DNA of 32,000 bases, taken from positions 30,001 to 62,000 of the forward strand of contig NJBF01000023.1 of NCBI GenBank assembly GCA_003144275.1, in the 5' to 3' direction. The DNA comes from Candidatus Heimdallarchaeota archaeon B3_Heim (GTDB taxonomy: Archaea; Asgardarchaeota; Heimdallarchaeia; Hodarchaeales; Hodarchaeaceae). Below are positions 2,110-31,132 of the stretch, piece after piece; position 1 is the first letter of the stretch; every line of letters begins with the position of its first letter. The notes beneath the pieces were generated by a model. The model saw nothing but the letters and a program-made list of their open reading frames with translations, did no database searches and was not told the DNA's origin. Position numbers and translations under genes: made by a program.

Positions 2110-3378
2110 ATGCCTGAACAACAACAAGTATATATTGCTGGAGGAACGACCACTCCTTTTGATTATCCAGTAAACCTGCAAATTGAAGAGCTTGTTGCAA
2201 ATACAATTCGTCAATTATATAAAGACGTTCCGAATTTTCATCTAAAGGATGTAAGAGATAACGGGATGGTGGTTTACAGTCATTTTAGCGTCCATTTTGC
2301 TCATCAATTAACTTCTTATTGGATATTACACGATCATTTGGGTTTGGTTGGAGTACCCCATTTTAGAATAGATAATGGTGGCAATACTGGAGGTAGTGCT
2401 CTTTATGCAGCTTATGCACTGGTCAGAGCAGGACTAGCTGATGTCGTCCCGGTAATTGGGTACGAATTGATGGGATCAGTTTCTCAGAGTAAAGGTTCAG
2501 AGTTTATTGCTATCGCGTCAGATACGAGATATGAGGCAATGCTTGGCGCAAATTATACTAACTATTATGCTGGACTTGCTCGTATTTTTATGGAGAAGTA
2601 CGGCTTAACTGAGGAAGATTTTGCGGAAATTGCCATAAAGAATAAGAATAATGCCATGGCAACTGGCGAAAAAGCACAACATTATCGAACTGTTGGTAAA
2701 AAATTAACAATCGATGATGTAATGGCAAGTCGTTTGATTTCTTATCCATTGAAGAAGTGGGATTGCTGCTTCATGTCAGAAGGAGCGGCCACAATTCTTG
2801 TTTGTAATGAAAAATATGCCAAGCAATATTCACCTGATCATTCTATAGAAATAACTGGTGCGGGTCTTTCTTCATGTACCATTCGCGCTGGTGATCGATA
2901 CGCGTTTCCTGGATGGACAGAAAAGTATGGAGAGGGATATCCAGGGTTAGGTGAGTTTGCAGCCTGTCGTCATTCTGCCGAAGTTGCATATAAAATGGCT
3001 GGAATAGACTGGAAAGATTCGCACAAACAGATTGATGTTGCAGAAGTACATGATGCTTTTTCAACGTCAGAATTTCAGATATACAATGCTCTTGGCTGGT
3101 GTGAATCAACCACACCAAAGCAGTTTATTCGGGATAAAATGCCCATGATGGAAGGAGAAATACCCACGAATCCTGGTGGAGGATTAATAGGGTATGGCCA
3201 TCCAGTGGGTGCAACAGGATTGATGTCGGCAATTGAGTGTTATTATCAGCTTACTGGGTTAATTCCGCGTGAACACAAAAGTACCGATAATGAGGTCAAA
3301 GATGCTGAAGTCGGGCTGGTGAATTCTCATGCTGGTACAGGTACATCTATCAGTAATTTTATCTTTAAGAGAGTGTGA
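2110..3378 (+). CDS. Thiolase-fold protein (SCP2/archaeal type) lacking the nucleophilic Cys
   Basis: Motifs WDCCFMSEGAA, EVHDAFS, NPGGGLIGYGHPVGATG. The usual ENACASG site reads DNGGNTG. SD GAGG upstream. Confidence 0.85.
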   Translation: MPEQQQVYIAGGTTTPFDYPVNLQIEELVANTIRQLYKDVPNFHLKDVRDNGMVVYSHFSVHFAHQLTSYWILHDHLGLVGVPHFRIDNGGNTGGSALYAAYALVRAGLADVVPVIGYELMGSVSQSKGSEFIAIASDTRYEAMLGANYTNYYAGLARIFMEKYGLTEEDFAEIAIKNKNNAMATGEKAQHYRTVGKKLTIDDVMASRLISYPLKKWDCCFMSEGAATILVCNEKYAKQYSPDHSIEITGAGLSSCTIRAGDRYAFPGWTEKYGEGYPGLGEFAACRHSAEVAYKMAGIDWKDSHKQIDVAEVHDAFSTSEFQIYNALGWCESTTPKQFIRDKMPMMEGEIPTNPGGGLIGYGHPVGATGLMSAIECYYQLTGLIPREHKSTDNEVKDAEVGLVNSHAGTGTSISNFIFKRV

Positions 3379-3390
3379 GGTGTAATAAAA

Positions 3391-4053
3391 ATGACTAAAC
3401 TTCATCCAACTCCAAATAATAAAGACTTTGATTGGAAAGAGTGGAAAGAATTAAGCAAACTGATCCCTGAAAAAGGATGGGTATGGCAAAATGTTCGTAC
3501 AGGGTCAGCAGAAGACGGAACAGATTGGGTTGAACAACAGATATACTACGATATGTTGTATACTTTCCGTTTAGGGGCTCTAAGCCCTTATGCAAAAGGA
3601 CTATTGAATGGTCAATTATTAGGCACAAAATGTGCAAAGTGTGGAGACATCACTTTTCCCCCTCGTGTTAATTGTTGGACGCTGGACTGCAAATTAGAGA
3701 TCACTGATTGGATTGAGATGCCTTTAACTGGGATTCTTCATACTTATACCATATGTGGCTTTGCTGCGAAAAGTGCTTTGAAAAAATTACCTTTTGTACT
3801 TGCTTACGTCCTTGTCGGTGAAAGCAAGACAGCCATCGCAAATATCCTGAAGATTGACGAACCCTGGCATACTGAAACAAATATGCCTGTGATTATTAAG
3901 TTTGCAAATGAAGAAGACCGAGTAGGAAATATTATTGATTTTTGGTTCGAGCCTGATCCAAAATGGTCACCTTCCCCCATGAATGCGGAGAAAGAACGGA
4001 TAAAAAAACTATGTGAACCTGTTTATGAATGGGTTCGTCGTTTGAAGCGATAA
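3391..4053 (+). CDS. DUF35-type Zn-ribbon/OB-fold protein (thiolase partner)
   Basis: LLGTKCAKCG...FPPRVNCWTLDC Zn ribbon followed by an OB fold (GILHTYTIC...PFVLAYVLV). SD GAGGTG overlaps the thiolase stop, so the two are cotranscribed. Confidence 0.9.
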   Translation: MTKLHPTPNNKDFDWKEWKELSKLIPEKGWVWQNVRTGSAEDGTDWVEQQIYYDMLYTFRLGALSPYAKGLLNGQLLGTKCAKCGDITFPPRVNCWTLDCKLEITDWIEMPLTGILHTYTICGFAAKSALKKLPFVLAYVLVGESKTAIANILKIDEPWHTETNMPVIIKFANEEDRVGNIIDFWFEPDPKWSPSPMNAEKERIKKLCEPVYEWVRRLKR

Positions 4054-4059
4054 ATAGAG

Positions 4060-4112
4060 GATTTTGCTTCTTTTTCAATTCCTCTTACTCCTTTTTTTCC
4101 ATTTAGATTTTG
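4060..4112. terminator. Pyrimidine/oligo-T tracts between convergent genes, probable archaeal terminator
   Basis: cttcttttttc and cctttttttcc runs just after the DUF35 stop codon. Confidence 0.45.
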
Positions 4113-16687: not shown

Positions 16688-17893
16688 TCAATCATACCTA
16701 ATTCTTGGGTCAACAAAAGCATACAGAATGTCCACAAGGAGATTGCTAAGCACATAGATTAATGCGGTAACCATAACAAACCCTTGAATTGCTGCAATAT
16801 CTAAGTTTGATACCGCGGTTACGGCCCATCGGCCAATTCCTGGCCAGTCAAAAACCGTTTCAGTTAATACGGTTCCAGTTAATAACCCAGCTAAAGAAAG
16901 CCCTGCTATAGTAAGCGTAGGAATTAATGCATTCTTTAATGCGTGCCGGTATATAATTACTCTCTCAGAGAGACCTTTAGATTTTGCAAGTAAAATGAAA
17001 TCTTGCCGCATTGTTTCAATCATGGCCATTCTTGTCATTCTTGTAATGAGCGCCATTTGTACCCATGCAAGACAAAATGCTGGTGGGAAAATGTGAATTA
17101 ATGCATCAATAAACAGCTCCAAGCTCACGAGAATTGATTCGAGAGCAGGAACTCCTGCGGGTAAATACAACAGATTATCAATTAAGTAAAAACCAGTTGT
17201 CGGTATTGGTCCAAGATCTAAAAATGGTAGCAAATTAAGGAGGCCTACTACTGCACCAAGGATATTATCCTCCTTCGCAAAAAATTTATTTACATTATAC
17301 CGCTCATGATAAGGCATTTTAATTCCAAGACCTAAATCTTCAAAAATCATATTAGAATTAAATATCAATACTTGTAACATTAGACCAAGCCAGAATATTG
17401 GCATGGAAACACCAGATAATGCTGTAATTCGAGAAATTTGATCTGGTAGTTGATCCTTTCTAGTTGCGGATACAATACCGAGAGGGATACCAATGACTAC
17501 AGCAAAAATCATCGAAAATATGGCTAACTCCGCAGTAGCTGGGAAACGGGTTATAATTACGTCTAAAACAGGTAGGGGAGGCCGAAACGAGGCCGAAACT
17601 CCCAAATCTGGAGGTCTTAAGTACCAAGACCCTATATTTGTAAGCTCTGGCGTTTCGAGTGGCCAAAGCCGTTGAAGATACCTAATATATTGTATGTGAA
17701 GGGGTTGATCAAGTCCTAGTTGTTCTGTTAAGAGTTGAATCCTTGCTTCTGTTAATCGATCTTGATCTTCTCCGATATACGAAGCAATCGGGTCTCCAAT
17801 GCTATTGGAGAGAATAAAACTCATAATACTAACCCCGAACATTACGGGGATTAACAATAACAGTCTTTTTATCGCATAGTCTCTTAATTTCAT
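16688..17893 (-). CDS. oppB: OppB/DppB-type ABC permease
   Basis: KRLLLLIPVMFG, GLDQP, RFPATAELA, EAA motif QDFILLAKSKGL, RHALKNAL, and ETVFDWPGIG. Confidence 0.94.
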   Translation of the reverse strand: MKLRDYAIKRLLLLIPVMFGVSIMSFILSNSIGDPIASYIGEDQDRLTEARIQLLTEQLGLDQPLHIQYIRYLQRLWPLETPELTNIGSWYLRPPDLGVSASFRPPLPVLDVIITRFPATAELAIFSMIFAVVIGIPLGIVSATRKDQLPDQISRITALSGVSMPIFWLGLMLQVLIFNSNMIFEDLGLGIKMPYHERYNVNKFFAKEDNILGAVVGLLNLLPFLDLGPIPTTGFYLIDNLLYLPAGVPALESILVSLELFIDALIHIFPPAFCLAWVQMALITRMTRMAMIETMRQDFILLAKSKGLSERVIIYRHALKNALIPTLTIAGLSLAGLLTGTVLTETVFDWPGIGRWAVTAVSNLDIAAIQGFVMVTALIYVLSNLLVDILYAFVDPRIRYD

Positions 17894-19033: not shown

Positions 19034-21814
19034 TTATTTAATTACGAAAATACCTTCACCAAGCAGCATTCCTCTTATGATAATTATAATGAGGAATATA
19101 ACAATGATATAATATAGAATCATGATTAATTTGGATAGATGACGGAAATAGGCTGGAATGAGAATATTCTCAAACGAGATCAGTTTGGGTAGATCAAGTT
19201 TTTTTAACATTTGTTCCGTTAAAGAGCGAATAGGACGGGCTGATATCGTTGCTACAACTTCTTTCTGGCTAGATTTATATGCTGGAATGATTGTACTCGC
19301 TATTGTAAATAGAAACGAGACGAATAACCACAATGCAACATGGTCAAGTGGAAAATTCAATGTAATAGGAATACTCAAGGAAATATACCATACGAGTAGG
19401 AGAGCACTAAATAATCCATCAAAAAAACCAAAAAATAGCGCGGTTATACCTAACGTCACCGATTCAACTAGAAAAATTGTAAATACTCCCCATTTCGATA
19501 AACCCATGCTACGCATAATTCCCATCTCCCTCTCCATTTGCAGAGTGGACATCAACACACCGACAAATTGTGCAATTCCTGCGAGAATAAATGTCTCAAA
19601 AAAGAGAATTTGAAATAAATTTGCCTGGAAGATTAGACTATTTTCAATGATTTTGCCATAATGCCCAATACCGATAACTTCTTTTAGAAAGGGGTATGTA
19701 AGTGACAAGTTCCCTTCAGTCTCCGACAGACTAAAACCTTCTATTACATCACAGACGAATAATTGAGCTAAGGAGGAGTTGAATAGTTCTTGAAAATAAG
19801 AAGTTCCAATATACAGATATCTTCCATTACCCAGAAAAATATTTCCTTTGATAATTGCTGCTATACGTATATTTACAGTGTTGTTTGAAGATGTTTTCAT
19901 TGATATATTAGAACCCATCGGCTTATTAATTGCACGATATAGATCTTCTGAAATTAAAGAGTTTATAATCGAAGGAGCAGAGGTGTTGGTTTCTAAAAAT
20001 TGAAAGCTTGGTACGTCTAAGATTGAATCGTAAACATTTTCAGCAAAAATTGAATACTGAGTTGGATCAACTCCATATACGTAGCCATTGGATTCACTAA
20101 TCTCAGTTCGTATTTCTTGAACGTATGCAACTTGTTTTATACGTTCATTTGCGAGTAAGCTTTCGGAAAAATTGATTGCTTGTCCAGGGTCATTCGCTTT
20201 GACTACTAGATCGACATTTCCCCATTGCCCCTGGTAATATTGGGGAACACTAGCTATTATAGTCGAAGAAACAACTCCTACCAATATAATAAATGTTAAC
20301 GCAATAGAAGATGTCATTATTGTAAAGAATGATCTCTGGAATTCACGTGCAATATTCCTCATCGAGATAAGACCTAACCGTACTTTAAAGGTCTTGAAAA
20401 ATAATTCTCCAGCTTTGGGTAAGAAGAATAATAATCCTGCCTCAACAAAAAGTGTCCCAGCAAAAATCAAGACAATTGTCATAAATTGAATAGAAAACAA
20501 AGAAAAGTCTAGGAATTGCGTGGTACTCGAAAAATTAGATAGAAAATAACCAGTAAAAGCCAAGACAATTCCAATAATTACTGTATATCTCCAGTACTCT
20601 GGAAGAGAAGATTTTTTAGCTGTTCTTATTTTAGAATGAATATTTTGAATTATAGGTTCCCGTATAATTAAATATAAAGGAAAAATTCCCGAGAAAAATG
20701 CCACTAGAATACCAGAGAGGAAGACCGTAATAACAGAGGCCGGATTAATAAGCACAGCTTGGAAATCTAAACTTGGATAAAACTGATCGATTACACCAAC
20801 TAATAAATTAGAGAAACTTATTCCAACGATTACACCCAAGATTCCACCGATGACGGAATACACAAGAATTTCATAGAACAATAGTAAAAATACTTGTTTT
20901 GTACTAATTCCAACAGTTCGAAGAATACCATACTCCTTTTGTCTTTCACGCACAGCAATTGTCAGGATATTAGTGGTAAAAAGAAATTCTACAAGTAAGG
21001 ATGCAAGAATTACAATATTCATTGCAATGGAATATGCTTTTATCCCAAGGACTTGGAGTTCAGAAATTTCCTTTCCTACAAATACATCATATTCTGGACC
21101 AAGAAAGTCTTTGATATTTTCCGAGATCTTTCTAATCTCAATGAAATCTCTGGTTGTAACATCTATCCTCATATTTAACGAGTCAATTTCTGGTGTAATC
21201 TCAAATAAATCAAGCATTGTGTTTATATCAATTAAAATAACAGCAAAAGCTTCTCTATTTCCAAAGAATGGTGGTGCCGAAAATATTCCTCCAACAATTA
21301 ATTCAGCACCTTTAAATCCAATTTCTGGTAATTGAGGTAACTCTATTGTTTCTCCCAATGATAACCCCATAAAATCTTTAACCGTCTGTGAAATTATGAT
21401 AGTACGTCCGACACCAGTCCTAAACCCCTCGGTGACATTCAAAATTGGTACATCAGGATGAGAATGGAAATTTACACCATATATTAACGCATTAACAGGA
21501 TATCCAGTTTCATTCTGTATCACATCTGCTGAGATATAGTATACTTCAGAAGCTTTTTGAACCCCTGGCACAGAGTGAACTTTAGATGTAAGATTTTGTA
21601 ATTCAGCTAAGCTTACCCACTTTTTCGGATGAACACTTATATCAGAATAATTTTGGTTTCGGTTATCAAAAAGAAAATCTGCGTAAATAGTGTCAACTGT
21701 TACAATTACTGCCATCTCTAGAGCAAGAGTAACGGTTATTCCGAATATTAGCAGAAATGATCTTTGTTTTGAGCGAAAAACATTTCTAAATGCTAGCTTA
21801 AGCATTGAATTCAC
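19034..21814 (-). CDS. FtsX/MacB-family ABC permease with two repeated halves
   Basis: AFRNVFRSKQRS, ERQKEYGILRTVG, RNIAREFQRS and QMEREMGIMRSMG, with two large extracellular domains rich in sequons. The start may be ATG 21805. Confidence 0.9.
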   Translation of the reverse strand: MNSMLKLAFRNVFRSKQRSFLLIFGITVTLALEMAVIVTVDTIYADFLFDNRNQNYSDISVHPKKWVSLAELQNLTSKVHSVPGVQKASEVYYISADVIQNETGYPVNALIYGVNFHSHPDVPILNVTEGFRTGVGRTIIISQTVKDFMGLSLGETIELPQLPEIGFKGAELIVGGIFSAPPFFGNREAFAVILIDINTMLDLFEITPEIDSLNMRIDVTTRDFIEIRKISENIKDFLGPEYDVFVGKEISELQVLGIKAYSIAMNIVILASLLVEFLFTTNILTIAVRERQKEYGILRTVGISTKQVFLLLFYEILVYSVIGGILGVIVGISFSNLLVGVIDQFYPSLDFQAVLINPASVITVFLSGILVAFFSGIFPLYLIIREPIIQNIHSKIRTAKKSSLPEYWRYTVIIGIVLAFTGYFLSNFSSTTQFLDFSLFSIQFMTIVLIFAGTLFVEAGLLFFLPKAGELFFKTFKVRLGLISMRNIAREFQRSFFTIMTSSIALTFIILVGVVSSTIIASVPQYYQGQWGNVDLVVKANDPGQAINFSESLLANERIKQVAYVQEIRTEISESNGYVYGVDPTQYSIFAENVYDSILDVPSFQFLETNTSAPSIINSLISEDLYRAINKPMGSNISMKTSSNNTVNIRIAAIIKGNIFLGNGRYLYIGTSYFQELFNSSLAQLFVCDVIEGFSLSETEGNLSLTYPFLKEVIGIGHYGKIIENSLIFQANLFQILFFETFILAGIAQFVGVLMSTLQMEREMGIMRSMGLSKWGVFTIFLVESVTLGITALFFGFFDGLFSALLLVWYISLSIPITLNFPLDHVALWLFVSFLFTIASTIIPAYKSSQKEVVATISARPIRSLTEQMLKKLDLPKLISFENILIPAYFRHLSKLIMILYYIIVIFLIIIIIRGMLLGEGIFVIK

Positions 21815-22432: not shown

Positions 22433-23743
22433 GTGGATATTATTACAGGTTTACTACTAACAGGCATTTTTTTTATTATATTAGTTTTAATTGCATCCGA
22501 AAAGTTTGACAAGGTATCTATAACTCTTGTAGGCGTTGTTGTTACAGTTATCGTTGCGAGTTCAGTAAATTTAATTCGAGAAATAAACATCGTATACCAA
22601 TGGCTTGATATCGAACTTATCATGACCATTGTGGGTGTTACGATAATAATGGAGATGTTGAAATCTTCAGGGTTGTTAGAAGTATTTATACTTTATATAT
22701 TAAGAAGTATTAGAGGTTCCTTCTATGTTCTTACCATGATATTATCTCTTTCCGTATTAGTGCTGAGTATGATGATTACCAATGTTTTAGCATTAATCAT
22801 TGTATCTTCTATCACAATTCTCATTGCTACTATTGCTGAATTTGATCCTAAACCTATATTGTTTCTGGAACTTGTTTATTCCAATCTTGCGGGCATGCTA
22901 ACTCCTATCGCTTCCTATACAGCAGCATATGTTTCATTAGAACAGAATTGGTCTTATTTAGACTTCCTCATTTTGAGTTTACCTTTTGTGGTCATAATGG
23001 TTTTACTAACAATCCCTGTCACCTATTATATGTTTAAAGACTCATTTATGGCAATGAAAGAAAAAGAGAAAACATTTGGAATTGAACTCCAACGTCTTCT
23101 CCATACAATTGATCCATGGAGTTTTGTTGATTCGCGTAAGGATTTCTATAAAGCAACTATCATTTTTATAATAGTTACAATATTTCTTGCGATTGGAACA
23201 TCAGTAGGATTCAGTGTAGATGTCATTTGTATTGGAGGGGGTGTTATTGTGTTGATCTTCTTTTCTGATCACGTAGATTCATTCATAAGAGCAGTTGACT
23301 GGCCAATGCTCTTTTTTTTAACGGGAATCTTCATTATGTCAGGACTTATTCAACTTACAGAAATACCTCTTCTTCTTGAAGAACCAGCACTTAAATTAAT
23401 TGAAATTTCTCCAGAAATTGGTATAGTGACTTTTTCAGGAATTCTCGGGGCACTAACAAGCATAATTGAAAACATTCCCCTTATATTTCTTTTACGTCCT
23501 GTAATAGACCTTCTTAGTAACAATACAGACCCTAGAATTGTATGGTGGACAATCCTTGCAGTAGTAAATATTACAGATTCAGTTATTCTTATTAGCAGTG
23601 TAAAAGGCATCTATATTATGGAGATGAGCCATAGAGAGGGAATTCCAATCACTTTCATGGAATATTTTCGATATGGTTTATCAATCACGGGGATACACTT
23701 GATTGCGATGGCACTTTATGTTTTTGTTTTATTTCTCCTCTAG
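22433..23743 (+). CDS. ArsB/NhaD (ion transporter superfamily) permease, divergent
   Basis: About 11-12 TMs, with ASEKFDKVSITLVG, LDIELIMTIVG and VDWPMLFFLTGIFIM, plus a C-terminal ITFMEYFRYG. GTG start. Confidence 0.8.
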   Translation: MDIITGLLLTGIFFIILVLIASEKFDKVSITLVGVVVTVIVASSVNLIREINIVYQWLDIELIMTIVGVTIIMEMLKSSGLLEVFILYILRSIRGSFYVLTMILSLSVLVLSMMITNVLALIIVSSITILIATIAEFDPKPILFLELVYSNLAGMLTPIASYTAAYVSLEQNWSYLDFLILSLPFVVIMVLLTIPVTYYMFKDSFMAMKEKEKTFGIELQRLLHTIDPWSFVDSRKDFYKATIIFIIVTIFLAIGTSVGFSVDVICIGGGVIVLIFFSDHVDSFIRAVDWPMLFFLTGIFIMSGLIQLTEIPLLLEEPALKLIEISPEIGIVTFSGILGALTSIIENIPLIFLLRPVIDLLSNNTDPRIVWWTILAVVNITDSVILISSVKGIYIMEMSHREGIPITFMEYFRYGLSITGIHLIAMALYVFVLFLL

Positions 23744-23798
23744 AGCTGAGCTACCTTTATCAAATCCTTTCTTCCATGAGAGCGATTGGTGTTGTTCT

Positions 23799-26700
23799 AT
23801 GTCTGAAGTTCAAAAGGAATTAGAAAAAGCTCAAGCTTTTGAAACAACAGGAAATTTCGAAAAGGCTGCAAAATCGTATCTCCAAATTGCCAAAAGTATT
23901 CCAGACGGGCAAAGAAGTTTAAAACTCTATAATAAAGCATTTTTTTCATCTCAAAAAACGGGAAAAAACGCCTTGATGTTCGAGTATGCACGACTTTATT
24001 ATCAACAGCTTTTACAAGAAGAACAACATAAAGCTATCAAAGAACTTCTCCCTACTTTCCTGGATCTATCTGGTCGGATACGAGATAAAATTGACGAACT
24101 TAAAGTGGAAGGTAAACTAGAAGTTTTAACTTGGGCATTAGATTTATATCAGCTTGCTGGTAACCAAATAGGGGCATATGAGATTAGTCAAGATATAGGC
24201 GACACCTATTTTGTCTTTGGGAAACAATTGTTATCGTCTGGTCATCTCCTAGGAAAGGAAGAAAAATACAATAAGGGTGTTGAACTTTTTAATCAAGCTA
24301 TCGAGAGCTATCAGTTGATTTCACTTGATACAACAGTTATGGAGAAAATTCTTGTTGTTAAACTTGAAAAAATCAACCGTTTCATTGACATAAGTCGCCC
24401 AGCCGAAGCAATGGAAGATACTGCAAATCTAATGCGTTATTTTAAGACACTGAATGTTGATATTCGTCCCTATTCCCAAAAAGATCTTTCACTCAGAATT
24501 GCGGAATTATTAGCAACAAAAACCTTAGAAAAAGTTCAGAAACAAATTGATATTGCTCGAGTATTACAGAAAACTGCAAGTGCTGGTTTTATAGAAGCAG
24601 AAGAGCCAGGAAGGGTGGCTCCCTTTCTATGGTCGCTTGCTCAAATTTTTGATAAAAACAATAAGATAGAAGACTTTGATACCACAAGTAATGAGGCATT
24701 TAATGCGGCCATTAAAAATGGTAACCAAGACATTGCAGAAAGTATTCTAACCTATTTGTTTGACCAGGGAAAATCGATTTGTGAAAATACTATCAATTCA
24801 CGGATGTTATTAGTAAAAAAGGGGTCGGTTGAATTTCGAAATAATAAGGGTGTCCAATACTTACTCCAACGAATCAAATTAGCGAAAACAACTGACGATG
24901 AAATCGTAAATCAAACTACTGAATATTTGTTCAATTATGGTCAAACGATGTTTGATAAAAAACTTCGGGTACGTTCTCTTCCATATTTTGAATATTGCGC
25001 GCGTACATGGTGGGATTTACATCAGGATACTGGACGAGCGAGAGAAATCACTACTTTTTTACAAAGCAATTTTGGTGATTTACTAAGTGAAGGAAAGCTT
25101 GATGATGCTGCAACCCAATTAATATCGATCGTTGATTTATTCACGTACTTTGGAGATACAGAAATGGCTGGAGATACAGCTTTTTCTTTTGCTCAAACTC
25201 TTGGTCAAGAAGGAAAAATATCTTATGAGTATGACTTTCTAGAACGATCTTATGCGAATTTTGAGAAATTAAAAGCAACAGAGAAATTGCAATCATTGAT
25301 TGATTATCTTATTGAACGTTCTGATCCCTTATTCTCTCATGATGAGAATATGAAAGACAATCTTCAGAATTTTCTCGAATTGATAAGCAAAACTGGAGCT
25401 GCAATCTCAATTGAAAGGCAGGGAGAAGTATTAGCTACAACAACATATAAATTGATTAACAGTAGCTTGATGGATCTTGCATCAAAGTACGTAGAAGAAA
25501 CGTTTGCAATATACAGTTCTTACGATAAGGAACTAGCAGCAGATTTCTATTTCAAAATTGGTACAATGTTAATAGAGAATAATCAAGAGTTAGCGATTGA
25601 AATTATTTCAAAATCGACCCAATTAGCCGCGGATGAATCAGAGCTTGAACAAATTGTTCTTAGAAATCTTCAATATTTAATGGATCAAGCTCTGGCCTCA
25701 CCTTTACTAAGAACTAAGCTGCTAATTATTAACCAGCTGGAAAGCATTTCTTCTCTTGTTCATAAAAGTGCAATTTTCAATACATTCCTCTTTCCATTCG
25801 TTCAGAACTTAGCAGAAAAAGCTATGGAACCGGAATATTTATCAGAAACGAATAGATATCTAATGAAAACCTTTACAACATATTTTGAGGAAGATAATTC
25901 ACATCCACACTTGGAAGAGATTATTGAGTGGACTAACAAGTTTATTTTAAGCTTGGATCAACCTCATCTACTTACTGAGATGATTCTCTTAAGTCTGAAT
26001 TTCCACGAAAAAACCAATAAACCAGATCAATTTATCACTTTTATTTGGCCTATTATGGAGAAACTGTCATCAGAGAAGGAAGACTTCCAGAAAGCAATCA
26101 CAATTTATAGACAAACATTTTCCTTCTTGAAACGTCTTAATGCTGAAAATGAAGAATTCACAGATAAAGTCGTATCCTTACTTGATCGCGATCAGAAATC
26201 AAGAATTCATGATGAGCAATTTGAAGAAGCTTGGGCTATTCTTCAAGCTCTATTTCAAATTCTCACGGAAACAGATATGAAAACTCAAGCTGTGCGATTA
26301 TATAAGGATAATGCAGTTCTATTTGCCCCTCTTCGATTAGATCTCGCCTTAACAATGTGGGCTCAGGCCAGTGACGAAGCCAAATGTCTTGAAAATTCAA
26401 GGGAAGTAATTGGTGGAATTTGTTCAGATATAAAAGAACATGGATTAACGGTCTACAAAGAACAGCAAAATCTACCTGCTGTACTTCAACTCTATAATCA
26501 GATCATAGAATTAAATTTAGCCATTGAAAATCTAGTAGGTGTTACGGATAATAGTATTGAGCGTTCAAAATATCTCCTAATGACGGGAGACTTCACATCG
26601 TTATTAGAATGGGGAGAAAAAAGTCTTCGATTGAGTATTGAGAAGAAACTAATAGATCTTCTTGTGGAAATCACAAATATGTTTTATTCTGCAGGAAGGA

Positions 26701-27269
26701 GCTTACTTGAGGAAGATCCAGAAGTAGCCATTACCCTGATTAATACCGCATCAAAGAACTTAAAAGCTTTTGGGGAGAAGGGAATAAACATATATTCTAC
26801 TAAAATTGCCGAAATTTATGAAGAATTGTATAGATCACCCATTGGCAATCAATTAGCAATATCGGAAAGAGAAAATCTGCTAAGACATTTTAAGGAGAAT
26901 AATCAGAAGCAAGAAGAGGCAAAATTTCTTTTAACCTCCGCAAAAATAGCATTTACAGAAAATAATGTCAGTGATGGAATCGATCAAATTTACAAATCAA
27001 CAACACTATTTCAAGATCTAGAAGATAAGAATGGCCTATCCGAAATAGTTACTTTTTGTTTAAGAACTGCTTCACGATTTCAAGTAGGATCTCCAGAATA
27101 TAATTCGTTGTCACAACATGCTACGGCAATTCAGGATGGAGGAATTACTCTGTCTGATGAACAAACACAAGAAGCTTTTGGAGATTTATATGATGGAATC
27201 CTAGATGATATGACCACGTTATTTGATCCAAAAGAAAAGAGAAAACGGATGAAACAGAAAAAGAAATGA
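23799..27269 (+). CDS. Large all-alpha helical-repeat (TPR/SNAP-like solenoid) protein, 1156 aa
   Basis: No TM or catalytic motif. Recurrent helix-pair patterns such as GNFEKAAKSYLQIA, GKLDDAATQLISIV and EQFEEAWAILQAL. Start set at ATG 23799 (SD GGTG); the track's 23703 overlaps the upstream gene. Confidence 0.75.
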   Translation: MSEVQKELEKAQAFETTGNFEKAAKSYLQIAKSIPDGQRSLKLYNKAFFSSQKTGKNALMFEYARLYYQQLLQEEQHKAIKELLPTFLDLSGRIRDKIDELKVEGKLEVLTWALDLYQLAGNQIGAYEISQDIGDTYFVFGKQLLSSGHLLGKEEKYNKGVELFNQAIESYQLISLDTTVMEKILVVKLEKINRFIDISRPAEAMEDTANLMRYFKTLNVDIRPYSQKDLSLRIAELLATKTLEKVQKQIDIARVLQKTASAGFIEAEEPGRVAPFLWSLAQIFDKNNKIEDFDTTSNEAFNAAIKNGNQDIAESILTYLFDQGKSICENTINSRMLLVKKGSVEFRNNKGVQYLLQRIKLAKTTDDEIVNQTTEYLFNYGQTMFDKKLRVRSLPYFEYCARTWWDLHQDTGRAREITTFLQSNFGDLLSEGKLDDAATQLISIVDLFTYFGDTEMAGDTAFSFAQTLGQEGKISYEYDFLERSYANFEKLKATEKLQSLIDYLIERSDPLFSHDENMKDNLQNFLELISKTGAAISIERQGEVLATTTYKLINSSLMDLASKYVEETFAIYSSYDKELAADFYFKIGTMLIENNQELAIEIISKSTQLAADESELEQIVLRNLQYLMDQALASPLLRTKLLIINQLESISSLVHKSAIFNTFLFPFVQNLAEKAMEPEYLSETNRYLMKTFTTYFEEDNSHPHLEEIIEWTNKFILSLDQPHLLTEMILLSLNFHEKTNKPDQFITFIWPIMEKLSSEKEDFQKAITIYRQTFSFLKRLNAENEEFTDKVVSLLDRDQKSRIHDEQFEEAWAILQALFQILTETDMKTQAVRLYKDNAVLFAPLRLDLALTMWAQASDEAKCLENSREVIGGICSDIKEHGLTVYKEQQNLPAVLQLYNQIIELNLAIENLVGVTDNSIERSKYLLMTGDFTSLLEWGEKSLRLSIEKKLIDLLVEITNMFYSAGRSLLEEDPEVAITLINTASKNLKAFGEKGINIYSTKIAEIYEELYRSPIGNQLAISERENLLRHFKENNQKQEEAKFLLTSAKIAFTENNVSDGIDQIYKSTTLFQDLEDKNGLSEIVTFCLRTASRFQVGSPEYNSLSQHATAIQDGGITLSDEQTQEAFGDLYDGILDDMTTLFDPKEKRKRMKQKKK

Positions 27270-29161: not shown

Positions 29162-31132
29162 TTAGGTGAGATCTGAACGGATTTTTTCGTAAAAATCCAA
29201 TGCTTCTGGATTAGAAAGAGCTTCCCGATTCGTAACAGGTCTACCATGAATAATATTGGTAACTGCCATTTCAACTTTTTTCAAACTGAAAGTATAGGGA
29301 ATATCAGGTGTTTCAAGGATAAGAGAAGGTACATGTCTAGGAGATGCTTTTGAGCGTAATTCTTTCTTTATTTTTGACTTTAATTCATTAGTAAGAACAG
29401 ATTTAGGCGCCAATTTGACGAAAAGTATGATTCTCTGATCATTCTTCCATTTTTGGCCAATCGTAAGACTATCTGCAACTTCAGGTAGTGCTTCCACAAT
29501 ATTATATATCTCTGATGTACCGATACGAACCCCTGATGGTTTTAACACTGCATCTGAGCGTCCAAGAACAGTCATTCCACCTGTATCACTGTGAATAATA
29601 ATATAATCTCCATGTCTCCAAACTTTTCTTTCAAGCGTATCAAAAAAATTGAAATAGGCATTTTTATATCGCCTATTATCTGGATCATCCCAAAAATAGA
29701 GAGGCATACTTGGAGATGGGGTTTCACAGACAAGTTCAGCCTGTTGATCTCGTACGGGATTACCACCTTCATCATACGCTTCAATACTCATCCCTAAAGC
29801 ACTTGCTTGAAGTTGACCAGCGTAAACAGGAAGAATAGGGCAACCACCAGCAAAAATAGCATTCAGATCAGAGCCTCCTGTAATAGAGTTAAAATGCAAA
29901 TCTGCTTTTATTGCTGAATACATCCATTCGTTAACCTCCGCTGAAATAGGAGATGCGGTCTGAGAAATAACTCTTAGAGACGAAAGATCATGATCTTTAC
30001 CTGGTTCGGCTCGTATTCCATGTAGATAATGCAGATAACTTGCTGATGTACCAAAAATCGATATTTTTTCTTCTTCAATTATTTTCCACATAGCTCTCCA
30101 ATCAGGAAAGAGAGGATTCCCATCATAGAGAAGAATTGTGGCTCCTACTGCCAACGACGATGTAAGCCAATTCCACATCATCCATGAGGGAGAAGTTATG
30201 TAATTTATACGATCACTCCTTTTCAGATCTGTGTGTAAAATTAAATCTCTCAATTGTGTTAAGAGAACACCACCTGCACCTTGAACCATAGACTTTGGCT
30301 TACCTGTTGTACCTGAACTAAACATGACATATCCAGGATGATTAAATTCTACCTGCTCAAATTGTATTTCAGCATTAGCTATTGGGGAAGAAAATTCTTC
30401 CATAGTAACAGCTTTGGGGATTGTAGAGATATCTAAATTTCTCTTTTTTGTATATGGTGTAACTATTACCTTTTCAACTGAATTTAAACCCTCTACCACT
30501 TTTCTTACATTGGGTAGTAAATTAATTGATACCCCTTTGTAGAAATAACCATCAGATACGAACAGTACTTTCGGTTTAATCTGGCCTAGTCGATCAAGTA
30601 CAGCATCTGAACCTAATTCCCCACCCGTAGATGCCCAGGTTGCTCCTAAACTAGTTGCAGCTAACATTGCAATGGTAGTTTCTATCAAATTAGGCTGGTA
30701 TGCAGCTACAAAATCTCCTTTTCTTACGCCCATTTTCCGCAATGAAGTTGAAAGCTGAGCTACTTTTAGATTAAGTTCAGAATATGTCATTACTTCACGA
30801 TATTTGGTTTCTCCACGAAATATGAATGCATATTGATCATCTTTATACCTTAACAAATTTTCAGCAAAGTTTAGTCTCGCTCCTGGAAACCATTCGTTAC
30901 CAATGAATTGATCTAGATTTTCCCCAACTTTGGTGTACTTACGTGAGGAAATTATCCCTGTAAAGTCCCACAAAGTCGCCCAAAAATCCATCATATTATT
31001 TGTTGACCATTCATGCAGTTGTGAATAATTTGATAACTGTAAATTATACTTTTTGTTTACATTTTTCATGAAACGAGTCATATTTGAGTTTTCAATTTGC
31101 CTTGCTGATGGTTTCCATAACAGTTTTGCCAA
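29162..31132 (-). CDS. Acetoacetate--CoA ligase (acetoacetyl-CoA synthetase)
   Basis: LWKPS, WFPGARLNFAENLL, FSSGTTGKPK, MMWNWL, WRHGD, GRSDAVLKPSGVRIGTSEIY, SPRHVP and KKVEMAV. TTG start with SD GGAG. Confidence 0.93.
   Translation of the reverse strand: MAKLLWKPSARQIENSNMTRFMKNVNKKYNLQLSNYSQLHEWSTNNMMDFWATLWDFTGIISSRKYTKVGENLDQFIGNEWFPGARLNFAENLLRYKDDQYAFIFRGETKYREVMTYSELNLKVAQLSTSLRKMGVRKGDFVAAYQPNLIETTIAMLAATSLGATWASTGGELGSDAVLDRLGQIKPKVLFVSDGYFYKGVSINLLPNVRKVVEGLNSVEKVIVTPYTKKRNLDISTIPKAVTMEEFSSPIANAEIQFEQVEFNHPGYVMFSSGTTGKPKSMVQGAGGVLLTQLRDLILHTDLKRSDRINYITSPSWMMWNWLTSSLAVGATILLYDGNPLFPDWRAMWKIIEEEKISIFGTSASYLHYLHGIRAEPGKDHDLSSLRVISQTASPISAEVNEWMYSAIKADLHFNSITGGSDLNAIFAGGCPILPVYAGQLQASALGMSIEAYDEGGNPVRDQQAELVCETPSPSMPLYFWDDPDNRRYKNAYFNFFDTLERKVWRHGDYIIIHSDTGGMTVLGRSDAVLKPSGVRIGTSEIYNIVEALPEVADSLTIGQKWKNDQRIILFVKLAPKSVLTNELKSKIKKELRSKASPRHVPSLILETPDIPYTFSLKKVEMAVTNIIHGRPVTNREALSNPEALDFYEKIRSDLT

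What the first reader, a model, noticed from the sequence alone, without database searches (positions are those of the whole stretch)
2110..4053. Thiolase-fold enzyme without the catalytic cysteine, paired with an extended DUF35 protein: candidate retro-aldolase
Seen: the nucleophile site (typically E-N-A-C-A-S-G) reads D88-N-G-G91-N-T-G, with Gly codon GGC at 2380-2382. The first Cys of the protein is far downstream (WDCC). HDAF (His314) and GHP (His364) are retained. The DUF35 partner has long N- and C-terminal extensions and CxxC...CxxxxC spacing. Known: thiolase chemistry needs this Cys, while actinobacterial Ltp2-type steroid side-chain aldolases lack it and work with a DUF35 domain. Inference: this is not the mevalonate-pathway thiolase despite neighbouring a lipid gene. 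It may be a CoA-thioester aldolase for branched, isoprenoid or steroid-like substrates in an archaeon.
Basis: partly seen in the sequence, partly recalled or inferred. Interest (0 to 1): 0.7.

Follow-up and report, generated by a model that had tools for sequence, protein, structure and literature searches.

The report
Cysteine-less thiolase-like enzyme with DUF35 partner
This Asgard archaeon has an intact two-gene operon for a thiolase-shaped protein with glycine where thiolases need their reactive cysteine, plus a dedicated zinc-ribbon partner; the pair belongs to a large, conserved, unstudied family that probably cuts or makes C-C bonds in short acyl-CoAs without thiolysis.

Summary
ORF 2110-3378 is a 422-aa thiolase-fold protein with G91 (GGC 2380-2382) at the nucleophile site. 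HDAF replaces HDCF, so the second catalytic Cys is also missing, while His314 and His364 are kept. ORF 3391-4053 is a 220-aa DUF35 protein with conserved N- and C-terminal extensions.

This is not a one-off mutation. Gly-Gly is invariant in 107 database homologues and 56 genomic orthologues. The family forms its own clade beside the Cys-bearing DUF35-type archaeal thiolases and is under strong purifying selection. It also has its own invariant residues: H62, Y149, Y153, S406 and H407.

It is not an Ltp2/Sal-type aldolase, because the defining Tyr of YDxF is His here. It lies much closer to archaeal acetoacetyl-CoA thiolases. Nothing points to steroid or isoprenoid substrates. In other genomes the pair sits in operons with acid-activating enzymes (a glutaconate-type CoA-transferase or an ACS/AACS-like ligase) and acyl-CoA dehydrogenases.

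My best reading, at modest confidence, is a non-thiolytic, aldolase- or lyase-like C-C enzyme acting on short acyl-CoAs. A decarboxylase, a scaffold subunit and an alternative-nucleophile thiolase remain open. A specific HMG-CoA-lyase role is only weakly supported. This scan has already flagged the same family on other genomes.

The parts
2110..3378 (+). Cys-less thiolase-fold subunit of the 'GG family', 422 aa
   Evidence: Pfam Thiolase_N and Thiolase_C_1. AF2 model with pLDDT 88 and pTM 0.92. Best Foldseek matches are 6esq and 7yvy. Homologues are 82-92% identical in Hodarchaeales and about 60% in Thor/Loki/Thermoplasmatota.
2377..2382 (+). Codons GGT GGC for G90-G91, with G91 at the thiolase nucleophile position
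   Evidence: Sequence read directly. Alignment to the catalytic Cys of 7yvy and 6esq. Invariant in 107 + 56 family members.
3049..3060 (+). H314-D-A-F loop: the His is kept and the SCP2-type acid/base Cys is replaced by Ala
   Evidence: H in 54/56 and A in 54/56 family members, whereas Cys-type neighbours read HDCF.
3196..3204 (+). G-H364-P loop, the second enolate-stabilising His
   Evidence: H364 is invariant.
3325..3330 (+). S406-H407 in the loop that holds Cys378 (CxG) in classical thiolases; this pair is specific to the family
   Evidence: S in 54/56 and H in 56/56 family members, whereas Cys-type relatives have N-[IV].
3377..3382 (+). GAGGTG ribosome-binding-like site overlapping the thiolase stop codon, 8 nt before the DUF35 start; 12 nt separate the two genes
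   Evidence: Sequence read directly. The same tight coupling (median gap 3 nt) is seen in 77 of 81 loci.
3391..4053 (+). Extended DUF35 partner, 220 aa (Zn ribbon plus OB fold)
   Evidence: Pfam. Homologues cover about 99% of its length at 44-86% identity. Predicted complex. A natural thiolase-DUF35 fusion exists, P0206.
3391..3594 (+). N-terminal extension of the DUF35 partner (residues 1-68), ending in the conserved Y-D-x-L-Y motif
   Evidence: Y57 is invariant, and D54 and L56 are at least 90% conserved in alignment A3.
3631..3690 (+). Zinc ribbon, C81-x2-C84 ... C95-x4-C100
   Evidence: C81, C84 and C95 are invariant. The fourth position varies between C, D and E across orthologues.
3898..4050 (+). 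C-terminal extension of the DUF35 partner, a conserved E-K-E-R...P-V-x-E-W helix
   Evidence: R203 and W214 are invariant. Residues 203-211 are predicted to pack on thiolase residues 208-212.
4068..4100 (+). T-rich tract after the DUF35 stop, resembling an archaeal terminator
   Evidence: Sequence read directly; not tested.
29162..31132 (-). Acetoacetate-CoA ligase, 25 kb away on the same contig; a possible but weak functional link
   Evidence: TIGR01217 scores 777 bits against a cut-off of 521. In a congener the same gene lies directly after the pair (L023), but there is no phylum-wide co-occurrence.

Best explanation
The two genes encode the subunits of one enzyme complex: a thiolase-fold dimer flanked by DUF35 subunits, as in the solved thiolase/DUF35 assemblies.

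The catalytic subunit keeps the two histidines (H314 and H364) that polarise an acyl-CoA thioester and stabilise its enolate in thiolases. It has replaced both catalytic cysteines (G91, A316). It has also gained its own invariant polar residues: H62, Y149, Y153, S406 and H407.

It therefore most likely breaks or makes a C-C bond at the alpha-carbon of a short acyl-CoA without a covalent acyl-enzyme. The most probable reaction is a retro-aldol (lyase) cleavage of a 3-hydroxyacyl-CoA into acetyl-CoA (or a similar acyl-CoA) plus a ketone, keto-acid or aldehyde. In that scheme the backbone NH of G91 would hold the beta-oxygen, as in the Sal and Ltp2 aldolases, and a His or Tyr would act as general base.

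Shown here: the fold, loss of both Cys, retention of both His, family-wide conservation, purifying selection, operon coupling, and acyl-CoA gene context in other genomes.

Inferred: complex formation, the reaction type, the roles of individual residues and the substrate. An HMG-CoA-like tertiary alcohol is one candidate substrate.
For: 1. Conserved active site, not a decayed one.
- All four thiolase catalytic loops are invariant or nearly so within the family, but with non-thiolase residues: G-G-x-T, H-D-A-[FY], G-H-P and S-H-A-G.
- F59, H62, Y149, Y153, R259, S406 and H407 are invariant here and differ in the Cys-type thiolases encoded in tandem with GG pairs in the Bathyarchaeia loci.

2. 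Selection. Among Hodarchaeales orthologues pN is 0.08-0.17 while pS is 0.73-0.91 for both genes.

3. Family size and shape.
- Of the 50%-identity representatives scoring above about 300 bits that cover the site, all but two (P0203, P0215) carry G-G, and Cys/HDCF thiolases begin below that score.
- The family forms one clade in a tree (SH-aLRT 87) beside the Cys-type DUF35 thiolases, apart from one AVG variant and one long-branch Cys row placed next to it.

4. Partner.
- DUF35 lies directly downstream in 77 of 81 loci.
- A natural fusion protein, P0206, joins the two.
- The complex model scores 0.75, against 0.06 for the best of 3 controls. That mark was reached by 58 of 80 solved complexes and 2 of 110 mismatched pairs. 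The runs agree in at least 95% of contacts, and the partner's pLDDT is at least 84. Similar complexes have been solved, so this pass may reflect likeness only.

5. Chemistry precedent. CtSal and TcLtp2 are thiolase-fold/DUF35 retro-aldolases that also have Gly at the nucleophile site, and its backbone NH binds the beta-hydroxyl (PMC12329534).

6. Gene context.
- In Thermoplasmatota, a glutaconate-type CoA-transferase (12 loci; PDB 1poi, 132 + 167 bits) or an ACS/AACS-like ligase (9 loci) lies immediately upstream on the same strand.
- In bacteria the operon reads ligase, GG-thiolase, DUF35, acyl-CoA dehydrogenase, with 14-20 nt gaps and 4-nt overlaps.
- One diverged member sits with ACAD, a MaoC hydratase, HBD and an aldehyde:ferredoxin oxidoreductase, which fits hydration followed by retro-aldol cleavage and aldehyde oxidation.

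7. Own genome.
- It has an operon of biotin carboxylase, BCCP, carboxyltransferase and a LiuC/AtuE-like hydratase.
- It has an acetoacetate-CoA ligase.
- It has no canonical HMG-CoA lyase: the best NF004283 hit is 34 bits against a cut-off of 246.
Against: - No biochemical data exist for any member. None of the 14 model genomes has one, and the literature searches found nothing on this family.
- The catalytic Tyr that defines the known thiolase-fold aldolases is absent, since the motif is HDAF. Aldolase chemistry would therefore need a different base.
- I could not measure distances in the model because no coordinates are returned. The active-site placement of H62, Y149, Y153 and H407 is inferred by homology only.
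- The contexts are heterogeneous. In this window and in most Thorarchaeia loci there are no acyl-CoA genes next to the pair.
- Across the Asgard sample the pair does not co-occur with acetoacetate-CoA ligase: family f13 has AACS in 21/29 genomes and the pair in 0/29, while f10 has 3/32 and 25/32. Nor does it co-occur with carboxyltransferase.
- Canonical HMG-CoA lyase was found in 0 of the 151 Asgard genomes searched and in 1 of the 151 Thermoplasmatota genomes searched, whether or not the pair is present. The 'missing lyase' argument is therefore not specific.
- The retained His-His pair suits decarboxylation equally well.
Confidence: 0.4

Rival explanations
1. It is an acyl-CoA decarboxylase. 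With the Cys gone, the retained His314/His364 pair stabilises the enolate formed when a beta-carboxy (or vinylogous) acyl-CoA loses CO2. Candidate substrates are malonyl-, methylmalonyl-, glutaconyl- or 3-methylglutaconyl-CoA. Ketosynthase Cys-to-Gln 'KSQ' domains work this way.
For: - The His-His pair is invariant while both Cys are lost.
- TbSLP, another thiolase-fold protein without the nucleophile Cys, decarboxylates malonyl-CoA slowly (kcat 0.005 s-1, as cited in PMC12329534).
- The Thermoplasmatota upstream gene is a glutaconate-CoA-transferase-type protein. Its next-best solved relative is 5mzw, which I recall as the M. xanthus 3-methylglutaconyl-CoA decarboxylase AibA/B. The naming is from my own knowledge; the tool labels it only 'glutaconate CoA-transferase family'.
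- Methylmalonyl-CoA-mutase-like, MeaB and B12-domain genes lie nearby in Bathyarchaeia, L045, L094 and L098. This recalls the E. coli mutase/MeaB/decarboxylase/CoA-transferase operon (own knowledge).
Against: - TbSLP's decarboxylase rate is so low that its authors' successors now doubt it is the real function.
- No conserved Arg or Lys specific to the family was identified that could bind a carboxylate. R86 and R263 are shared with Cys-type thiolases; R259 is family-specific but lies in the predicted DUF35 interface.
- Mutase neighbours occur in only a minority of loci.
- The gain of two invariant Tyr, one Ser and two His suggests acid-base chemistry beyond simple decarboxylation.
Confidence: 0.2
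2. It is a non-catalytic subunit, a pseudo-thiolase. Together with its DUF35 it would scaffold, regulate or deliver acyl-CoA to another enzyme, for example a Cys-bearing thiolase or an HMG-CoA synthase.
For: - Both catalytic Cys are gone.
- DUF35 proteins are known scaffolds, in the thiolase/HMGCS complex (6esq) and in the S. acidocaldarius KT/DUF35/reductase/dehydratase assembly (bioRxiv 10.1101/2024.07.05.601840).
- In Bathyarchaeia the pair is followed in tandem by a Cys-thiolase with its own DUF35.
- In acidophilic Thermoplasmata it abuts HBD and a classical thiolase.
Against: - The strongest conservation lies exactly in the four former catalytic loops, with new invariant polar residues there. 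This is atypical for a pure scaffold.
- Most loci hold no second thiolase or HMGCS.
- The pair has its own dedicated DUF35 rather than sharing one.
Confidence: 0.15
3. It is still a thiolase or acyltransferase that uses another nucleophile. Candidates are Ser406 (at the position of classical Cys378), the nearly invariant Cys220, or direct attack by free CoA in a ternary complex.
For: - S406 is 54/56 conserved at the Cys378-equivalent position, next to the invariant H407.
- C220 is conserved in 52/56 members.
- Neighbours such as acetoacetate-CoA ligase (L023), CoA-transferases, HBD and ACAD are what one expects around a beta-ketothiolase.
Against: - C219 is shared with ordinary Cys-type thiolases (D-C-C or D-C-S). 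The neighbouring C220, although largely family-specific, is not invariant (S or A in 4 of 56) and its distance from the catalytic centre was not tested.
- The genome already has two canonical thiolases: C52 with Cys and HDCF, and C31 matching PRK06445 at 576 bits.
- No thiolase using a Ser nucleophile is known (own knowledge).
- Cys304Ser abolished activity in the related CtSal.
Confidence: 0.15
4. It is the first reader's specific version: an Ltp2/Ltp3/Ltp4-type aldolase for steroid-like or isoprenoid side chains.
For: - Gly at the nucleophile site and a DUF35 partner, as in Ltp2 and Sal.
- A UbiA prenyltransferase gene lies upstream, transcribed divergently.
Against: - The defining Tyr base is absent, since the motif is HDAF.
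- Ltp2 and Sal are distant: 60 and 40 bits, and Foldseek ranks 31 and 36.
- No MaoC hydratase, ChsE-type dehydrogenase or sterol genes lie in the window.
- The UbiA synteny is confined to the genus.
- Neighbours elsewhere are short-chain acyl-CoA enzymes.
Confidence: 0.03

Closest known systems
Archaeal DUF35-dependent acetoacetyl-CoA thiolases (M. thermolithotrophicus thiolase/HMGCS/DUF35 complex, PDB 6esq/6et9; P. furiosus thiolase, 7yvy)
   Same: These are the best sequence and fold matches: 122-142 bits, TM about 0.85-0.92, 28% identity. They share the SCP2-type fold, the A-S-D...E loop, the GHP histidine and a small Zn-ribbon/OB partner encoded downstream.
   Different: The nucleophile Cys is Gly here. 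HDCF is HDAF here (7yvy also reads HDAF). The N-[IV]-G-G loop is S-H-A-G. The partner is about 90 residues longer, and no HMG-CoA synthase is encoded alongside.
TcLtp2-ChsH2(DUF35) and CtSal-CtShy(DUF35) steroid side-chain retro-aldolases (PDB 6ok1, 9myr; PMC12329534)
   Same: Thiolase fold, Gly at the nucleophile position, dependence on a DUF35 domain, and C-C cleavage without an acyl-enzyme. This is the chemistry proposed here.
   Different: Their catalytic Tyr (YDHF or YDCY) is His314 here. Ltp2's second Tyr appears to correspond to the retained His364. Sal's catalytic Cys304 corresponds to Ala316. Sequence similarity is low (60 and 40 bits). Their DUF35 is fused to a MaoC hydratase, and their genes lie in steroid catabolic clusters.
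Trypanosoma brucei SCP2-thiolase-like protein TbSLP (PDB 5ab4-5ab7)
   Same: A thiolase fold without the nucleophile Cys, with oxyanion holes preserved. It binds malonyl- and acetoacetyl-CoA, and its function is unresolved.
   Different: It has a YDCF motif, no DUF35 partner, and is eukaryotic and mitochondrial. It is only a distant match (37 bits).
Thiolase-like protein ST0096 of Sulfolobus tokodaii (PDB 4yzo)
   Same: An archaeal SCP2-type thiolase-like protein that also lacks the Cys (D-N-T-S-G-S-G-G in the alignment). It matches at 111 bits.
   Different: It has Ser rather than Gly at the site and lacks the S-H-A-G loop. No function has been published.
S. acidocaldarius ketothiolase/DUF35 fatty-acid-synthase core (Saci_1121/1120; bioRxiv 10.1101/2024.07.05.601840)
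   Same: A KT/DUF35 heteromer. The paper notes an average of 3.8 KT/DUF35 pairs per Asgard genome. This genome has such a Cys-bearing pair, with DUF35 fused to an SDR, on contig C52.
   Different: That ketothiolase is a working Cys enzyme. The pair studied here is a separate, Cys-less paralogue family.

Membership tests
Thiolase (acetyl-CoA C-acetyl/acyltransferase) | Nucleophilic Cys in the N-beta3/N-alpha3 loop (E-x-A-C-x-S-G) | tested here: not met
   G91 aligns with this Cys. Gly is invariant in the family.
Thiolase (acetyl-CoA C-acetyl/acyltransferase) | Acid/base Cys, either in the CxG loop or as the Cys of HDCF in SCP2-type enzymes | tested here: not met
   The motif is HDAF (A316), and the CxG-equivalent loop reads N-S-H-A-G.
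Thiolase (acetyl-CoA C-acetyl/acyltransferase) | Thiolase fold with the His (or Asn) of loop 2 and the His of GHP | tested here: met
   Pfam Thiolase_N and Thiolase_C_1. Foldseek TM is 0.8-0.9 to thiolases. H314 and H364 are conserved.
Ltp2/Sal thiolase-fold retro-aldolases | Catalytic Tyr at the first position of YDHF/YDCY | tested here: not met
   That position is His314 (HDAF) in 54 of 56 family members. The requirement for Tyr is taken from PMC12329534.
Ltp2/Sal thiolase-fold retro-aldolases | Gly replacing the nucleophile Cys | tested here: met
   G91. Gly89 in CtSal and its equivalent in TcLtp2 are described in PMC12329534.
Ltp2/Sal thiolase-fold retro-aldolases | DUF35 partner supplied by a MaoC hydratase (ChsH2/Shy) inside a steroid-catabolic cluster | tested here: not met
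   The partner is a stand-alone DUF35 with no MaoC domain. No steroid genes lie in the window. A MaoC gene is adjacent in only one diverged relative, L094.
Ltp2/Sal thiolase-fold retro-aldolases | Retro-aldol activity on 3-hydroxyacyl-CoA | not testable with these tools
   This needs an enzyme assay.
DUF35 (zf-ChsH2 + OB_ChsH2_C) partner proteins | Rubredoxin-like Zn ribbon followed by an OB fold, encoded next to a thiolase-fold gene and binding it | tested here: met
   PF12172 scores 27.1 bits (cut-off 23.2). PF01796 scores 20.8 bits, which is below its cut-off of 27.1. The 6esq DUF35 chain matches residues 75-152. The gene is adjacent in 77/81 loci. Binding is predicted only.
NCBIfam NF004982 (PRK06365, 'thiolase domain-containing protein', equivalog) | Score at or above the curated cut-off of 695 bits | tested here: not met
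   The score is 324.8 bits. This is the best-matching model but lies below the cut-off, so the protein is a related subfamily, and the model carries no functional name anyway.
SCP2-thiolase-like proteins (SLP) | YDCF fingerprint | tested here: not met
   HDAF.

The most novel reading that the evidence does not exclude
The GG-family thiolase-fold/DUF35 complex is a previously unrecognised, cofactor-free acyl-CoA C-C lyase. For example, it could be the non-orthologous HMG-CoA or 3-hydroxy-3-alkylacyl-CoA lyase of Asgard, Thermoplasmatota and Bathyarchaeia, in which the canonical HMG-CoA lyase was almost never found in the Asgard and Thermoplasmatota genomes searched. It would use a new His/Tyr active site built on the thiolase enolate machinery, and it would link amino-acid or ketone-body catabolism to acetyl-CoA in the closest archaeal relatives of eukaryotes.
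Probability: 0.15. Interest if true: 0.75.

Novelty: new variant of a known kind. Interest (0 to 1): 0.55.

Why it matters
Databases label these proteins 'acetyl-CoA C-acetyltransferase' or 'thiolase domain-containing'. Metabolic reconstructions of Asgard, Thermoplasmatota and Bathyarchaeia therefore count them as thiolases of the mevalonate, fatty-acid or butyrate pathways, which they cannot be.

The family is large: more than 593 species-level loci and roughly 20-40 clusters at 50% identity. It is old, patchily distributed (39/151 Asgard and 23/151 Thermoplasmatota genomes sampled), strongly conserved, and has no characterised member.

Finding its reaction would add a third active-site solution to the thiolase-fold/DUF35 enzymes, beside Cys-Cys thiolases and the Tyr-based steroid aldolases. 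It could also fill a gap in archaeal short-chain acyl-CoA metabolism.

The same genome also carries a second Cys-less thiolase, with Pro at the site, followed by a DUF35 gene in the arrangement of the archaeal mevalonate-type thiolase-DUF35 pair, although no HMG-CoA synthase gene lies next to it. How these archaea make acetoacetyl-CoA for lipids is therefore worth asking.

Tried and rejected
1. A catalytic Cys supplied in trans by the DUF35 partner. C208 in the C-terminal extension looked conserved among Asgard partners. It is Val in Thermoplasmatota and Leu in Bathyarchaeia partners, whose thiolase subunits are 42-64% identical. Rejected.

2. Co-occurrence with acetoacetate-CoA ligase. The two are adjacent in one congener (G119/L023) and 11-25 kb apart in two others. 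Across 151 Asgard genomes the distributions do not match. This is a weak, genus-level link only.

3. Anti-correlation with canonical HMG-CoA lyase. NF004283 is found in 0/151 Asgard genomes, 1/151 Thermoplasmatota genomes and 0/5 genomes that carry the pair. The test is uninformative because the lyase is missing almost everywhere.

4. Co-occurrence with acyl-CoA carboxyltransferase. It is present in 86/151 genomes and is unrelated to the pair's distribution.

5. Literature. No paper on this family or on ST0096 function was found.

6. Model organisms. None of the 14 control genomes has a member above the cut-off.

7. Expression. No RNA holder was listed among public runs. This says nothing about expression, and read laying was not used.

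8. Active-site distances. The structure tool returns no coordinates, so proximity of H62, Y149, Y153, C220 and H407 to G91 could not be measured.

9. Tree with Ltp2/Ltp3/Ltp4, BbsB and PhlC. I could not add these sequences by reference. The tree holds only the family, Cys-type DUF35 thiolases and classical thiolases. The relation to Ltp2, Sal, BbsB and PhlC rests on phmmer and Foldseek scores.

10. The UbiA 'lipid gene' neighbour. It is divergently transcribed and syntenic only within the genus, so I did not treat it as functionally linked.


Full report
**What is there**

The window lies in a 3.95-Mb, 94%-complete genome. Its closest database relatives are labelled Hodarchaeales, an Asgard group.

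ORF 2110-3378 (+) encodes a 422-aa protein with Pfam Thiolase_N and Thiolase_C_1. Twelve bases further on, behind a GAGGTG that overlaps the stop codon, ORF 3391-4053 (+) encodes a 220-aa DUF35 protein. It has a Zn ribbon at residues 69-95 and a weaker OB-fold match at 107-169. A T-rich tract follows.

Upstream, transcribed divergently, is a UbiA-family prenyltransferase. Downstream, convergent, is pyruvate kinase.

- Residues 88-94 are D-N-G-G-N-T-G, and codon 91 is GGC at 2380-2382.
- phmmer alignments to solved archaeal thiolases place G91 on the catalytic Cys of E-A-A-C-A-S-G. The alignment with this genome's own Cys-bearing paralogues agrees.
- The first Cys is C219 in W-D-C-C. HDAF starts at H314, and the GHP histidine is H364.
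- HDAF in place of the SCP2-type HDCF means the acid/base Cys is also missing.
- The loop that holds Cys378 in classical thiolases reads N-S-H-A-G.

**It is a family trait, not a lesion**

- All 107 full-length homologues from the 5.8-billion-protein search have G-G at positions 90-91.
- In the 56 GG-type full-length orthologues aligned, G90, G91, H62, Y149, Y153, R259, H364 and H407 are invariant, and S406, A316 and H314 nearly so. The Cys-type thiolases encoded in tandem with GG pairs in the Bathyarchaeia loci have A-C, S, F, F, G, N-[IV], C and H at the corresponding positions.
- A profile search of 1.84 billion representatives gives G-G in all but two of the clusters scoring above about 300 bits that cover the site. 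Cys/HDCF thiolases start below that score.
- In a maximum-likelihood tree the family forms a clade (SH-aLRT 87) beside Cys-type DUF35 thiolases, with one AVG variant and one long-branch Cys row placed next to it. The N-G-G-N-T-G-G subgroup (Hod, Thor, Loki, Thermoplasmatota) sits on a long, fully supported stem.
- Among Hodarchaeales orthologues synonymous sites are saturated (pS 0.73-0.91), while pN is 0.08-0.17 for both genes. This indicates strong purifying selection.

**The partner**

- A DUF35 gene follows directly in 77 of 81 loci, with a median gap of 3 nt.
- The extensions are conserved in the partners of about 220 aa found in Asgard, Thermoplasmatota and Bathyarchaeia. There is a Y-D-x-L-Y motif before the ribbon (Y57 invariant) and an E-K-E-R...P-V-x-E-W helix at the C-terminus (R203 and W214 invariant). 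Partners in the acidophilic Thermoplasmata subgroup and in bacteria are shorter (148-170 aa), and I did not check them for these motifs.
- Three ribbon cysteines are invariant, and the fourth position varies.
- A 752-aa protein in the database fuses a GG-type thiolase to such a DUF35.
- A complex model supports binding, with a score of 0.75 against 0.06 for the best of 3 controls. That mark was reached by 58 of 80 solved complexes and 2 of 110 mismatched pairs. The runs agree in at least 95% of contacts, and the partner's pLDDT is at least 84.
- The predicted interface uses thiolase residues 125-162, 208-215 and 259-268, together with the OB domain and C-terminal helix of the partner.
- Because thiolase/DUF35 complexes have been solved, this pass may only reflect likeness.
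- The monomer model is confident (pLDDT 88) except for residues 123-147, a conserved loop that lies in this predicted interface.

**What it is not**

Ltp2 and Sal, the known thiolase-fold/DUF35 aldolases, also have Gly at the nucleophile site. They are defined, however, by a catalytic Tyr in YDHF or YDCY (PMC12329534). Here that residue is His314.

They are also distant. Ltp2 and Sal score 60 and 40 bits, against 122-142 bits for archaeal acetoacetyl-CoA thiolases. Their Foldseek ranks are 31 and 36, against 1-6.

No steroid-type genes lie in the window. The UbiA neighbour is syntenic only within the genus.

The protein is not needed as a conventional thiolase either. The genome has:
- a Cys/HDCF ketothiolase in a cluster of enoyl-CoA hydratase, MDR, KT and a DUF35-SDR fusion, resembling the archaeal fatty-acid synthase of bioRxiv 10.1101/2024.07.05.601840;
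- a classical thiolase next to a FadB-like gene.

**Clues to function**

The pair is patchily distributed: 39/151 Asgard and 23/151 Thermoplasmatota genomes sampled. This suggests an accessory, probably catabolic, role.

In most Asgard loci, including this one, the neighbours are uninformative. Elsewhere they are telling.

- **Thermoplasmatota.** The gene immediately upstream on the same strand is one of two alternative ways of making a CoA ester from a free acid. In 12 loci it is a fused glutaconate-CoA-transferase-type protein (PDB 1poi A+B, 132 + 167 bits). In 9 loci it is an ACS/AACS-like ligase. Both lie 61-269 nt away. An AcrC/Bcd-like acyl-CoA dehydrogenase, an MbcS-like ligase and a carboxyltransferase often lie next door.
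- **Bacteria.** The operon reads ligase, GG-thiolase, DUF35, acyl-CoA dehydrogenase, with 14-20 nt gaps and 4-nt overlaps.
- **Bathyarchaeia.** A Cys-thiolase/DUF35 pair follows in tandem, and a B12 mutase set lies nearby.
- **Acidophilic Thermoplasmata.** HBD and a classical thiolase abut the pair.
- **One diverged relative (L094).** It sits with ACAD, a MaoC hydratase, HBD, a Cys-thiolase and an aldehyde:ferredoxin oxidoreductase.
- **A congener (L023).** A bona fide acetoacetate-CoA ligase follows the pair. In this window the same gene is 25 kb away, at 29162-31132.

**Reading**

The enzyme keeps exactly the part of the thiolase machinery that stabilises a thioester enolate, namely the two histidines. 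It discards the part that forms and resolves the acyl-enzyme, and it adds new polar residues.

This argues for C-C chemistry at the alpha-carbon of a short acyl-CoA without covalent catalysis. Retro-aldol (lyase) cleavage is favoured for three reasons:
- the Gly-for-Cys precedent in Sal and Ltp2;
- the ligase/ACAD operons that lack a dehydrogenase step;
- the hydratase and aldehyde-oxidoreductase context of one relative.

An HMG-CoA-lyase-like role is attractive. This genome has an operon of biotin carboxylase, BCCP, carboxyltransferase and a LiuC/AtuE-like hydratase. It also has an acetoacetate-CoA ligase and no canonical lyase.

That role is only weakly supported, however. The canonical lyase was found in almost none of the Asgard and Thermoplasmatota genomes searched, regardless of the pair. 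Neither the ligase nor the carboxyltransferase co-varies with the pair.

Three alternatives stay open. The first is a decarboxylase using the His-His pair. The second is a non-catalytic scaffold. The third is a thiolase using another nucleophile.

A catalytic Cys donated by the DUF35 tail was tested and rejected.

**Prior notes of this scan**

The same family was flagged on at least eight other windows. One follow-up, on the congener with the adjacent ligase, likewise judged the HMG-CoA-lyase idea weakly supported. My tests agree with that.

**Verdict**

This is a real, conserved, uncharacterised Cys-less member of the thiolase-fold/DUF35 enzymes, mis-annotated as acetyl-CoA acetyltransferase. 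It is a new active-site variant of a known kind. Its reaction and substrate are unknown, and direct enzymology is the decisive step.

Noticed in passing
L005:5465-7005 (own genome, contig C43:68464-70004): A second Cys-less thiolase (395 aa) has Pro at the nucleophile position (E-N-G-P-A-S-G) and HDAF. A 118-aa DUF35 follows it. Its best models are PRK06064 and the M. thermolithotrophicus acetoacetyl-CoA thiolase model, both below cut-off. The upstream 255-aa ORF has no family hit.
   Followed up: partly
L006:1604-5936 (own genome, contig C52): A cluster of enoyl-CoA hydratase, Zn-dependent MDR, a Cys/HDCF ketothiolase and a 421-aa DUF35-SDR fusion protein. It resembles the archaeal fatty-acid-synthase components described for S. 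acidocaldarius, but with DUF35 and the reductase fused.
   Followed up: partly
L015:985-2664 (own genome, contig C19): The only HMG-CoA-synthase-like gene found is a 559-aa ORF that scores below both curated cut-offs (NF003274 205 bits against 244; TIGR00748 180 against 353). It has no Pfam hit at E <= 0.001.
   Followed up: partly
window 29162-31132 (-): A bona fide acetoacetate-CoA ligase (TIGR01217, 777 bits). In congeners it lies 0.16 kb or 11 kb from the Cys-less thiolase pair; here it is 25 kb away.
   Followed up: yes
window 7918-17893: An oligopeptide/dipeptide ABC transporter cluster: three ATPase genes, a family-5 solute-binding protein and two permeases, one of which has an FG-GAP-like insert. 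This fits a peptide-fermenting lifestyle.
   Followed up: no
window 19034-21814 (-) and 22433-27269 (+): Three large ORFs of 926, 436 and 1188 aa that I did not annotate.
   Followed up: no
L106:5542-10355 (own genome, contig C63): An operon of biotin carboxylase, BCCP, carboxyltransferase and a LiuC/AtuE-like enoyl-CoA hydratase. It is of the methylcrotonyl/geranyl-CoA carboxylase pathway type, in a genome with no canonical HMG-CoA lyase.
   Followed up: partly
P0206 (752 aa, metagenomic protein): A natural fusion of a GG-type thiolase domain (residues 19-486) with an extended DUF35 (BLASTP against the window's partner, E 1e-8).
   Followed up: partly
L094:3303-15762 (MAG labelled Deltaproteobacteria): A long same-strand cluster: IclR regulator, ADP-forming acyl-CoA-synthetase-like protein, citrate-synthase-like protein, ACAD, a diverged GG-thiolase that has lost H314, DUF35, MaoC hydratase, HBD, a Cys-thiolase, a 331-aa DUF35 and an aldehyde:ferredoxin oxidoreductase.
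   Followed up: partly
L073-L076 (Bathyarchaeia): A tandem of GG-thiolase, DUF35 (225 aa), Cys-thiolase and DUF35 (135-169 aa), with a methylmalonyl-CoA-mutase-like gene, a B12-binding domain gene and MeaB upstream.
   Followed up: partly
representatives P0203-P0238: Among the thiolase-like clusters just outside the GG family, other residues occupy the nucleophile position (D, S, P, A, E, N). Loss of the Cys has therefore happened repeatedly in DUF35-type thiolases.
   Followed up: no
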